A stretch of 64,000 nt of DNA from Candidatus Krumholzibacteriota bacterium. GTDB lineage: Bacteria > Krumholzibacteriota > Krumholzibacteriia > JAJRXK01. The translations under genes were made by a program, and so were the position numbers. Location: contig CAVXTH010000009.1 in the NCBI GenBank assembly GCA_963764625.1, positions 199,739 to 263,738 of the forward strand, written 5' to 3'. Below are positions 57,840 through 58,005 of the stretch, one piece after another. The notes beneath the pieces were generated by a model. The model was given only the letters and a program-made list of their open reading frames with translations. It did no database searches and had not been told where the DNA came from. Position 1 is the first letter of the stretch; each line of letters opens with the position of its first letter.

Positions 57840-57847
57840 GCGCCCAC

Positions 57848-57893
57848 ATTGGATGGCTGATACACTGATTGGATGGTCACTTTTCCCATCCAA
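57848..57893. promoter_or_regulatory. Operator-like repeats (two direct ATTGGATGG copies 20 bp apart plus an inverted copy) between divergent transporter and MocR-type regulator genes
   Basis: ATTGGATGG at 57848-57856 and 57868-57876; CCATCCAA (reverse complement of TTGGATGG) at 57886-57893. Confidence 0.45.
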
Positions 57894-58005
57894 ATCCCCT
57901 TGACGCGGGGATCTTAGCCTCTATCCTTTGGAAAGGACCCCTCCAATCAACGAGCTCGGCGGGCCGCAGTTGAGCTCGCTCTCTAGGCCCGGCGGGAGCC
58001 TCAGC

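What the first reader, a model, noticed from the sequence alone, without database searches (positions are those of the whole stretch)
57840..58005. Three copies of TTGGATGG (two direct, one inverted) in the promoter region of a MocR-type regulator
ATTGGATGG occurs at 57848 and 57868 (20 bp apart, two helical turns) and its reverse complement at 57886, all within 46 bp between the divergent DMT transporter gene and the MocR regulator gene. Characterised MocR regulators (GabR, PdxR) bind direct repeats, sometimes with an inverted repeat, so this is a strong candidate operator. A TTGACG-N16-TATCCT promoter-like element follows at 57899-57926.
Basis: partly seen in the sequence, partly recalled or inferred. 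Interest (0 to 1): 0.45.

Follow-up and report, generated by a model that had tools for sequence, protein, structure and literature searches.

The report
Conserved operator of a MocR/PdxR-like regulator
The repeated TTGGATGG boxes are real and are kept upstream of the same regulator gene in bacteria from at least five phyla, so they are very probably the site where this vitamin-B6-type (MocR/PdxR-like) regulator binds to control its own two-gene operon; this is a well-supported but ordinary kind of bacterial switch.

Summary
TTGGATGG occurs at 57849-56 (+), 57869-76 (+) and 57886-93 (-), and nowhere else in the 64-kb window. A fourth, degenerate inverted copy was missed: CCCTCCAAT at 57939-47, just after the -10 hexamer.

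Comparison with other genomes decides the case. The four boxes, a TTGAC -35 and a TATCCT-like -10 are the invariant blocks upstream of orthologues at 89, 75 and 72% protein identity, with spacing 20 / 17-18 / 53-54 bp. In 72 orthologous loci from Acidobacteriota, Chloroflexota, Bacillota, Synergistota and Calditrichota, sites within one mismatch of ATTGGATGG are about 30 times denser in the 200 bp upstream of the regulator gene than elsewhere.

The conserved partner is not the divergent EamA/DMT gene, which is adjacent only in this lineage. It is the gene downstream of the regulator: a paralogous 401-aa aminotransferase here, pdxS-pdxT in Chloroflexota, and PhzF plus a racemase in others.

Best reading: a four-box operator brackets the promoter of a mocR-aminotransferase operon. 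It resembles the two-direct-plus-one-inverted operator of PdxR, with an extra box at about +10 for autorepression. Binding, the sign of regulation and the effector (probably PLP) are inferred. This is a new member of a known kind, of modest interest.

The parts
57848..57856 (+). Box 1, ATTGGATGG (distal direct repeat), centred about -82 from the predicted transcription start
   Evidence: D2. The ATTGG core is invariant in the four-sequence alignment. It has the second-highest matrix score in the whole window. It is present in the window's own clade and in some other loci, but is the least widely conserved of the four boxes.
57868..57876 (+). Box 2, ATTGGATGG (proximal direct repeat; box A of the family-wide layout), centred about -62
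   Evidence: GATTGGATGG is invariant in all four close orthologues. It has the top matrix score in the window. Its position is conserved across phyla.
57886..57894 (-). Box 3, TTTGGATGG on the - strand (CCATCCAAA on +). It forms an inverted repeat with box 2 across a 9-bp spacer and ends 5 bp before the -35 hexamer (box B), centred about -44
   Evidence: I4, I5. CATCCAA is invariant. The same box-plus-(-35) module, CCAnCCAATTGG-nnn-TTGAC, is seen in Anaerolineae, Acidobacteriota and metagenome loci.
57900..57905 (+). -35 hexamer TTGACG of the mocR operon promoter
   Evidence: TTGAC is invariant in the orthologue alignment.
57922..57927 (+). -10 hexamer TATCCT, 16-nt spacer; predicted transcription start near 57934
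   Evidence: The aligned hexamers are TATCTT, CATATT and TATCCT in the orthologues. The start site is inferred, not measured.
57939..57947 (-). Box 4, ATTGGAGGG on the - strand (CCCTCCAAT on +), at about +6 to +14 and 53 bp from box 3 (box D).
   Evidence: I1, I3. AAAGGA-CC-TCCAAT is invariant in the alignment. The B-to-D spacing of 51-54 bp recurs across phyla. It has the fifth-highest matrix score in the window.
58006..59520 (+). mocR: 504-aa regulator with a GntR winged helix-turn-helix fused to a fold-type I aminotransferase-like domain (PdxR-like)
   Evidence: Pfam PF00392 plus PF00155. NCBIfam PdxR model NF052282 scores 334.7 bits against a cut-off of 320. Orthologue N-termini align to this ATG.
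59561..60766 (+). 401-aa class I/II aminotransferase, 40 bp downstream of mocR and probably co-transcribed; a paralogue of the regulator's effector domain
   Evidence: Pfam. It is 39% identical to MocR residues 112-479. The closest solved structures are multiple-substrate, kynurenine and 2-aminoadipate aminotransferases. No promoter or terminator match was found in the gap between the two genes. The pair is conserved in about 30 orthologous loci.
56856..57776 (-). Divergent EamA/DMT transporter gene (306 aa from GTG 57776). It is a neighbour only in this lineage, and its membership of the regulon is unproven
   Evidence: Pfam EamA. The start is set by L208, which has ATG at the homologous position and a 306-aa product, and by where orthologue alignments begin. 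In L001 and L004 the EamA orthologue lies 2-3 kb away in a SpoU-EamA operon with no boxes upstream.

Best explanation
The repeats are the operator of the MocR/PdxR-like regulator encoded immediately downstream.

Four 9-bp boxes with consensus ATTGGATGG bracket the sigma-70-type promoter of a two-gene operon, mocR plus a paralogous aminotransferase. Boxes 1 and 2 are direct repeats 20 bp apart. Box 3 is inverted and sits directly upstream of the -35 hexamer. Box 4 is inverted, lies 53 bp from box 3, and covers about +6 to +14.

Each winged-helix domain of the head-to-tail regulator dimer would read one box. Boxes 1-3 span 47 bp and have the same two-direct-plus-one-inverted layout as the 48-bp operator of Bacillus clausii PdxR. 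There, the cofactor-free form prefers the direct pair and the PLP-bound form prefers the inverted pair.

I propose the same effector-dependent switch here, with box 4 adding autorepression by blocking RNA polymerase. It may act cooperatively with box 3, which lies five helical turns away. The effector is most likely PLP, or an amine that forms an aldimine with bound PLP.

Shown: the boxes, their positions relative to a conserved promoter, and their conservation with the regulator gene across phyla. Inferred: that MocR itself binds them, the sign of regulation, and the effector.
For: 1. Footprint in close relatives. In window, L007, L001 and L004 the invariant blocks are the four boxes, TTGAC and AAAGGA, while the intervening sequence varies. 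Box spacing is 20 / 17-18 / 53-54 bp in all four.

2. Wide conservation. There are 101 hits within one mismatch in the 200 bp upstream of mocR in 72 loci, against about 3 per 200-bp bin elsewhere. Density is 6.4 per kb against 0.19 per kb inside the gene. A three-box layout with fixed spacing occurs in 34 of 73 upstream regions and 0 of 1318 controls. The loci come from Acidobacteriota, Chloroflexota, Bacillota, Synergistota and Calditrichota.

3. The boxes follow the regulator, not its upstream neighbour. That neighbour is a co-directional gene in L001 and L007 and a SpoU-EamA operon in L004.

4. The winged-helix residues that read DNA in GntR-type proteins are invariant in the orthologue alignment (R42, R52, T54, G73, G75, T76), in line with one shared motif.

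5. The same palindrome abutting a -35 hexamer lies in front of pdxST in a classic divergent pdxR/pdxST locus (L181), and in front of a LysE gene divergent from other MocR genes (L110, L197).

6. Orthologues head operons with pdxS-pdxT (17 loci) or with PLP-linked enzymes, and the protein passes the NCBIfam PdxR cut-off. This supports PLP as the signal.

7. Literature. Two direct boxes plus one inverted box is the commonest MocR motif structure, and most motifs have a TGG or TGT core (PMC5320631). B. clausii PdxR switches between repeat pairs with PLP (PMC10450172). In Streptomyces coelicolor the -35 and -10 of pdxR lie between PdxR sites and the gene is autorepressed (PMC12220430).
Against: - There is no binding or expression data; the organism is known only from metagenome assemblies.
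- 17 of 72 orthologous loci have no site within one mismatch, and only about half show the strict three-box layout. The motif is therefore not universal in the group.
- Box 1 is not conserved outside the window's clade and a few other loci.
- Boxes 3 and 4 each deviate from the consensus at one position in the window.
- The transcription start is predicted only, and the -10 hexamer is weak (TATCCT).
- No pdx gene lies in the 64-kb window, so the PLP link rests on orthologues.
- A scan for further targets was uninformative: 104 of 120 metagenome palindrome hits are not next to a MocR gene and look heterogeneous.
Confidence: 0.8

Rival explanations
1. The operator mainly serves the divergent pair. 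The regulator, bound at boxes 1-3, controls the EamA/DMT transporter gene as well as (or instead of) its own operon, as classic PdxR and GabR do with their divergent targets.
For: - EamA and mocR are divergent and share the 229-bp region in the window and in the near-identical L208.
- A TTGACG-N16-TACGCT element lies on the - strand at 57811-57784, just before the GTG start (read; see also the inverted TTGACGC pair, I7).
- DMT transporters are reported members of some MocR (PdxQ) regulons (PMC5320631).
- Other MocR genes with the same palindrome are divergent from a LysE exporter.
Against: - EamA is not adjacent in the 89, 75 and 72% orthologues or in any of the 80 genome loci.
- In L001 and L004 the EamA orthologue sits in a SpoU-EamA operon with no boxes upstream.
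- The - strand -35-like hexamer is not conserved even in L208, and a 119-bp indel separates box 1 from EamA there.
- The scan found no - strand promoter at its threshold.
Confidence: 0.25
2. The boxes are bound by some other transcription factor whose sites merely co-occur with this operon, not by the MocR protein.
For: No binding data exist. The ATTGG/CCAAT core is short. The exact palindrome also occurs in many metagenome contigs with no MocR gene nearby, including one copy that recurs upstream of a 174-aa ORF.
Against: - The only gene that always accompanies the boxes across five phyla is mocR itself; both the upstream and the downstream neighbours change.
- The box layout and TGG core fit known MocR/GntR operators (PMC5320631).
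- More distant MocR genes carry the same palindrome.
Confidence: 0.05
3. It is a chance cluster of a short word, or a non-regulatory structure such as a hairpin or repeat element.
For: The count of three copies in the window equals the composition expectation. About 8.5% of simulated 64-kb sequences contain some 8-mer clustered three times.
Against: - Box sequence, orientation and spacing are conserved in orthologues whose flanking sequence has diverged.
- There is no Rfam match.
- The predicted leader folds no better than shuffled sequence (z = 0.12).
- No other copies occur in the window, as a dispersed repeat would give.
Confidence: 0.02

Closest known systems
PdxR operator of Bacillus clausii (pdxR-pdxST intergenic region; PMC10450172)
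   Same: - Two direct repeats plus one inverted repeat within about 48 bp (47 bp here, 57848-57894).
- Bound by a MocR-type dimer.
- Overlaps the regulator's own promoter region.
- The protein here passes the NCBIfam PdxR cut-off, and orthologues are linked to pdxST.
   Different: - The box sequence is not known to match.
- The regulator gene here is the first gene of the regulated operon rather than divergent from its target.
- The target in this genome is an aminotransferase, not pdxST.
- There is an extra conserved box downstream of the -10 hexamer.
- The solved B. clausii PdxR is only a distant sequence match (E = 5.6e-34).
PdxR (SCO1417) sites at the pdxR promoter of Streptomyces coelicolor (PMC12220430)
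   Same: The recognition sites flank the -35 and -10 hexamers of the regulator's own promoter. The gene is negatively autoregulated, the repeats have a TGG core (RTGGVY), and PLP is the effector.
   Different: The repeats are 6 nt long with a different consensus. pdxST is a separate, unlinked target there. Binding was demonstrated by gel shift in that system and is untested here.
GabR of Bacillus subtilis (MocR subfamily founder)
   Same: Same domain architecture, repeated boxes in the regulator's promoter region, autorepression, and a target operon that encodes an aminotransferase.
   Different: - GabR uses direct repeats only and a divergent gabR/gabTD layout (as described in PMC5320631).
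- Its effector is GABA with PLP.
- The NCBIfam GabR model scores 152 bits against a cut-off of 600, so this protein is not a GabR.
Predicted PdxQ and other MocR regulons from comparative genomics (Suvorova and Rodionov 2016, PMC5320631)
   Same: Those regulons mix PLP-dependent aminotransferases, PhzF-like (COG384) proteins and DMT/LysE transporters. The same gene families are found next to orthologues here. Motifs there have two to four boxes.
   Different: That study covered Proteobacteria, Firmicutes, Actinobacteria, Bacteroidetes, Cyanobacteria and Deinococcus-Thermus. The phyla that carry most of this orthologue group (Acidobacteriota, Chloroflexota, Synergistota) are not among the groups it lists, and 'Chloroflex' and 'Acidobacter' do not occur in its supplement. 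I found no paper in the library that mentions both TTGGATGG and a MocR regulator.

Membership tests
MocR/GabR subfamily of GntR regulators (the protein at 58006-59520) | N-terminal GntR-type winged helix-turn-helix domain | tested here: met
   PF00392, residues 16-78, E = 3.6e-18.
MocR/GabR subfamily of GntR regulators (the protein at 58006-59520) | C-terminal fold-type I aminotransferase-like domain that retains the PLP-binding lysine | tested here: met
   PF00155, residues 123-464, E = 5.7e-37. S329-K330 is invariant in 26 orthologues and aligns with the TFSK motif of the neighbouring aminotransferase.
MocR-type operator | Two to four repeated boxes, direct and/or inverted, with a TGG or TGT core, in the regulator's upstream region | tested here: met
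   Four boxes in the order direct, direct, inverted, inverted, with consensus ATTGGATGG. The criteria are those of PMC5320631, section 9.
MocR-type operator | Box spacing close to whole helical turns and constant within an orthologous group | tested here: met
   Spacing is 20 / 17-18 / 53-54 bp in window, L007, L001 and L004. The B-to-D spacing of 51-54 bp recurs across phyla.
MocR-type operator | Conserved upstream of orthologous regulators | tested here: met
   55 of 72 loci have at least one site within one mismatch; density is about 30 times background. The boxes are the invariant alignment blocks.
MocR-type operator | Specific binding by the cognate regulator | not testable with these tools
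   This needs a gel shift, a footprint or DAP-seq.
PdxR (regulator of PLP synthesis or salvage) | Score above the curated cut-off of the NCBIfam PdxR model | tested here: met
   NF052282 scores 334.7 bits against a cut-off of 320. The margin is narrow. The stand-alone aminotransferase next door scores 278 bits on the same model, so the model is not very selective.
PdxR (regulator of PLP synthesis or salvage) | Genomic or regulatory link to pdxST, pdxK or other B6 genes | tested here: inconclusive
   No pdxS or pdxT lies in the 64-kb window. The downstream gene is an aminotransferase. Seventeen orthologous loci, mostly Chloroflexota, do have mocR-pdxS(-pdxT). The rest of this genome could not be scanned.
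PdxR (regulator of PLP synthesis or salvage) | PLP acts as the effector | not testable with these tools
   Inferred only, from the retained PLP lysine and from the gene context of orthologues.
GabR | Score above the NCBIfam GabR cut-off, and linkage to gabT/gabD | tested here: not met
   NF052285 scores 152.4 bits against a cut-off of 600. No gabTD-type neighbours are present.

The most novel reading that the evidence does not exclude
The boxes may mark an old, uncharacterised PdxR-like lineage spread across many phyla and built differently from the studied PdxR and GabR systems.

- The regulator is the first gene of the operon it controls.
- One operator-promoter module has been kept while the cargo gene changed: pdxST, a paralogous aminotransferase, or PhzF plus a racemase.
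- The sensor domain is much closer to working kynurenine/aminoadipate-type aminotransferases (E about 1e-91) than to GabR or B. clausii PdxR (E about 1e-34 to 1e-37), and all catalytic-site residues checked are retained.

The regulator could therefore still be an active transaminase that senses its substrate, shared with the co-transcribed paralogue, by turning it over rather than only by binding PLP.
Probability: 0.12. Interest if true: 0.6.

Novelty: new member of a known kind. Interest (0 to 1): 0.3.

Why it matters
It gives a concrete, testable operator (box consensus ATTGGATGG, four positions, promoter mapped to the base) for a MocR/PdxR-like regulator group that is common in poorly studied phyla: Acidobacteriota, Chloroflexota, Synergistota and candidate phyla. 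The 2016 regulon survey of this family does not list those phyla among the groups it analysed.

The motif can be used to predict vitamin-B6-linked regulons in metagenome-assembled genomes. It also shows that genome annotation as "PdxR" should be read with care, because here the regulated gene is an aminotransferase and not PLP synthase.

It does not reveal a new regulatory principle.

Tried and rejected
1. Chance cluster. Rejected on cross-species conservation. The in-window statistic alone is only suggestive.

2. RNA element or riboswitch in the leader. There is no Rfam match at E <= 1 in 57600-58200 or at gathering score in the whole window. The 78-nt predicted leader folds no better than shuffled sequence.

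3. Further operator sites in the window. The other hits within one mismatch are isolated and number what composition predicts (12 found, 12.4 expected). The best of them, at 23613, lies inside a 781-aa ORF.

4. Regulon discovery by scanning metagenomes for ATTGGATGG-N7-10-CCATCCAAT. Of 120 loci, 16 are next to a MocR gene. The other 104 are a mixed set of perfect hairpins, transposase and ABC-permease neighbours, and a recurrent site before an unannotated 174-aa ORF. I drew no regulon conclusion from them.

5. EamA as a conserved target. Rejected as a conserved feature. It remains possible in this lineage.

6. Looking up the source organism. The taxon stays unknown.

7. Published box sequences for comparison. 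The supplement of the B. clausii structure paper is not held, and the 2016 survey's supplement contains no site sequences matching ATTGG.

8. The long TTG ORFs. The ORF starting at 57928 for mocR and the one at 57893 for EamA are mechanical extensions. Orthologue alignments set the starts at 58006 and 57776.

Full report
**What is in the sequence.** Reading 57600-58200 and an exact search confirm TTGGATGG at 57849-57856 (+), 57869-57876 (+) and 57886-57893 (-). These are the only three exact copies in the 64-kb window. The two direct copies extend to ATTGGATGG and start 20 bp apart (D2). The inverted copy reads TTTGGATGG on its own strand.

The consensus scan finds one sigma-70-like promoter on the + strand. 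TTGACG is at 57900-57905, followed by a 16-nt spacer and TATCCT at 57922-57927.

- Orthologue alignments place its start at ATG 58006, not at the upstream TTG.
- It scores 334.7 bits on the NCBIfam PdxR model, whose cut-off is 320. It scores far below the GabR, MocR, EhuR and PtsJ cut-offs.

Forty base pairs downstream lies a 401-aa aminotransferase (59561-60766). The scan found no promoter or terminator match in the gap.
- It is 39% identical to the regulator's own effector domain.
- Its closest solved relatives are archaeal multiple-substrate and kynurenine aminotransferases and Thermus 2-aminoadipate aminotransferase.

The - strand gene is an EamA/DMT transporter. A strain with more than 90% identity (L208) has ATG where the window has GTG 57776, and its product is 306 aa. 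More distant orthologues begin aligning at the same residue. I therefore place the EamA start at 57776, which makes the intergenic region 229 bp.

**Is it more than chance?** The count of three copies in 64 kb is what base composition predicts (2.33 expected). The clustering is the unusual part.
- This is the only place in the window where any 8-mer occurs three times, on either strand and without overlap, within 46 bp.
- First-order Markov simulations give 0.09 such places per 64 kb.

That is suggestive but not decisive, so I turned to related sequences.

**Close orthologues.** A protein search found orthologues at 89, 75 and 72% identity, followed by a large group at 53-60%. I fetched the contigs for the three closest.

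All of them carry the four boxes upstream of the regulator gene. In the alignment the invariant blocks are:
- ATTGG of box 1;
- GATTGGATGG of box 2;
- CATCCAA of box 3;
- TTGAC of the -35 hexamer;
- AAAGGA-CC-TCCAAT around box 4.

The sequence between these blocks differs. Box spacing is 20 / 17-18 / 53-54 bp in every case.

In these relatives the upstream neighbour is not a divergent EamA gene.
- In L001 and L007 it is a co-directional gene.
- In L004 the nearest divergent unit is a SpoU-EamA operon about 670 bp away.
- No boxes lie upstream of SpoU-EamA in L001 or L004.

Only L208, which is nearly identical to the window, shares the EamA-mocR arrangement. Even there a 119-bp indel separates EamA from box 1.

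**Distant orthologues.** A profile-based scan of one genome per species returned 80 loci with relatives at 37-59% identity. They come from Acidobacteriota, Chloroflexota, Bacillota, Synergistota, Calditrichota and unclassified bins.

In the 72 loci that contain the N-terminus of the gene:
- Sites within one mismatch of ATTGGATGG number 101 in the 200 bp upstream of the start, against about 3 per 200-bp bin anywhere else in the loci.
- Density is 6.4 per kb upstream against 0.19 per kb inside the gene.
- 55 of 72 loci have at least one site.

The layout is also conserved.
- A forward box is followed 21-25 bp later by a second box. This second box is often the palindrome CCAATTGG, directly abutting TTGAC.
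- An inverted box follows 51-54 bp further on, after the -10 hexamer.
- With fixed spacing rules, this three-box layout occurs in 34 of 73 upstream regions and in 0 of 1318 random segments from the same loci.

The window's boxes 2, 3 and 4 correspond to these three conserved positions. Box 1 is an extra upstream direct copy found in the window's clade and a few other loci. A matrix built from the orthologue sites ranks boxes 2 and 1 first and second among all positions in the window, box 4 fifth and box 3 seventh.

**What travels with the operator.** The gene downstream of mocR varies among the loci:

| Downstream partner | Loci | Main taxa |
|---|---|---|
| 401-aa aminotransferase | about 30 | Acidobacteriota, the window's clade, several Bacillota, Calditrichales |
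| pdxS, usually followed by pdxT (PLP synthase) | 17 | mostly Chloroflexota |
| PhzF-like protein plus Asp/Glu racemase-like protein | 7 | Synergistota and Bacillota |

EamA is not present in any of the 80 genome loci. The constant elements are therefore the regulator gene, its promoter and the boxes. The regulated cargo gene changes, but it stays within PLP synthesis or PLP-dependent amino-acid chemistry.

A metagenome scan for the exact palindrome ATTGGATGG-N7-10-CCATCCAAT returned 120 loci, of which 16 lie beside the N-terminus of a MocR gene.
- One is a classic divergent pdxR/pdxST pair whose regulator is only 25% identical to ours.
- Two are MocR genes divergent from a LysE exporter.
- In each of these the palindrome abuts the -35 hexamer of the target promoter.

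The remaining hits are heterogeneous and I draw nothing from them.

**How it most likely works.** Taking +1 as about 57934, the box centres lie near -82, -62, -44 and +10.

The literature gives the following background.
- MocR proteins are head-to-tail dimers with two winged-helix domains. Two direct boxes plus one inverted box is the commonest predicted operator structure in the family, and a TGG or TGT core is usual (PMC5320631).
- In Bacillus clausii, a 48-bp operator with this structure is bound at the direct pair by cofactor-free PdxR and at the outer inverted pair by PLP-bound PdxR (PMC10450172).
- In Streptomyces coelicolor, the pdxR -35 and -10 hexamers lie between PdxR sites, and the gene is autorepressed (PMC12220430).

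Boxes 1-3 here span 47 bp with the same arrangement, and boxes 3 and 4 bracket the promoter five helical turns apart.

I therefore propose that the regulator binds these boxes and controls its own mocR-aminotransferase operon.
- Box 4 provides repression.
- The upstream boxes provide effector-dependent repositioning and possibly activation.
- PLP, or an amine that reacts with bound PLP, is the signal.

The conservation and geometry are shown by the data. Binding, the sign of control and the effector are inferences.

**Rival explanations.**
- Co-regulation of the divergent EamA gene is possible in this lineage. A TTGACG-N16-TACGCT element lies on the - strand just before the GTG start, and DMT transporters occur in some MocR regulons (PMC5320631). 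But the arrangement is not conserved, and the -35-like hexamer is not kept even in L208. I give it about 0.25.
- A different protein binding the boxes is unlikely, because mocR is the only constant neighbour.
- A chance cluster or a structural RNA is excluded by the conservation, by the absence of Rfam matches and by an unremarkable leader fold.

**Comparison with what is known, and novelty.** This works like a PdxR-type operator and meets every sequence-level criterion for a MocR operator that I could test.

Membership of PdxR in the strict functional sense is inconclusive.
- The curated model is passed only narrowly.
- The same model gives 278 bits to the neighbouring stand-alone aminotransferase.
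- No pdx gene lies in the window.

The 2016 family-wide regulon survey lists Proteobacteria, Firmicutes, Actinobacteria, Bacteroidetes, Cyanobacteria and Deinococcus-Thermus as its analysed lineages. It does not list the phyla that carry most of this group, and its supplement does not mention Chloroflexi or Acidobacteria. I found no paper in the library that pairs TTGGATGG with a MocR regulator.

I rate this as a new member of a known kind. It is a well-supported operator prediction with a slightly unusual layout, in which the regulator comes first in its operon and a fourth box follows the -10 hexamer. It is not a new mechanism. Interest is 0.3.

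Noticed in passing
window 58006-59520 and 59561-60766: The regulator's effector domain is far closer to working aminotransferases (P. horikoshii 1X0M, E = 3.5e-91; Thermococcus 1WST, E = 3.8e-89) than to the solved MocR regulators GabR (E = 2.4e-37) and B. clausii PdxR (E = 5.6e-34). It is 39% identical to the aminotransferase encoded 40 bp downstream. This could mean a duplication followed by fusion, or retained enzymatic activity.
   Followed up: partly
L024, L032, L037-L043, L049, L051, L052, L057, L058, L060, L063, L076, L078, L081 (downstream of the mocR match): Orthologues in Chloroflexota, and one in Acidobacteria, head a co-directional mocR-pdxS(-pdxT) operon with the same boxes. 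The characterised PdxR systems are divergent from pdxST (B. clausii, C. glutamicum) or unlinked to it (S. coelicolor).
   Followed up: partly
L032, L037-L043, L049, L052, L057, L078 (about 100-200 bp upstream of mocR, opposite strand): A PucR-family regulator (HTH_30 plus a GGDEF-like domain, 520-564 aa) is conserved divergently upstream of the mocR-pdxST operon in Chloroflexota. Its role is unknown.
   Followed up: no
L028, L035, L044, L061, L062, L066, L073: In Synergistota and some Bacillota the same regulator and boxes precede a PhzF-like gene and an Asp/Glu racemase-like gene. In some Acidobacteriota and Desulfosporosinus loci these genes follow the aminotransferase, which suggests a shared but unidentified amino-acid pathway.
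   Followed up: no
L098, L104, L108, L118, L132, L134, L135, L141, L173, L202, L205 and others (metagenome contigs, several labelled human gut): The exact palindrome ATTGGATGGAATTTATCCATCCAAT recurs 18 bp upstream of a 174-aa ORF with a lipoprotein-like N-terminus and no Pfam match. No MocR gene is nearby. This is unexplained.
   Followed up: partly
window 57777-57847 compared with L208 3560-3749: A strain with more than 90% protein identity has a 119-bp insertion or deletion between the EamA start and box 1, while the operator and promoter are almost identical. The window's ATG at 57839 is not conserved there, which supports GTG 57776 as the EamA start.
   Followed up: yes
window 57793-57806 and 57805-57811 / 57900-57906: There is a tandem CAACGGC-CAACGGC just upstream of the EamA start. 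There is also an inverted pair GCGTCAA / TTGACGC, giving two TTGACG hexamers that point outward and flank boxes 1-3. The left one could be the -35 of an EamA promoter whose -10 ends only 7 nt before the GTG, which would give a near-leaderless transcript.
   Followed up: partly
window 55188-56813 (- strand): Downstream of EamA lies a 541-aa FHA-GAF-SpoIIE (PP2C-type phosphatase) protein. The same neighbour is present in L208. In the 75% and 72% relatives the EamA orthologue instead has a SpoU methylase gene upstream in its operon, with DUF1648 and isocitrate/isopropylmalate dehydrogenase genes downstream in the 72% one (L004). The neighbourhood has therefore been rearranged in this lineage.
   Followed up: no
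window 57951-57994: The predicted mocR leader contains the inverted repeats CGAGCTC/GAGCTCG and CGGCGGGCC/GGCCCGGCG, which form a stem in the fold. The folding energy is no better than shuffled sequence (z = 0.12). This stretch is absent from the 75% and 72% orthologues, and the 89% orthologue (L007) has a similarly long but largely divergent leader.
   Followed up: yes
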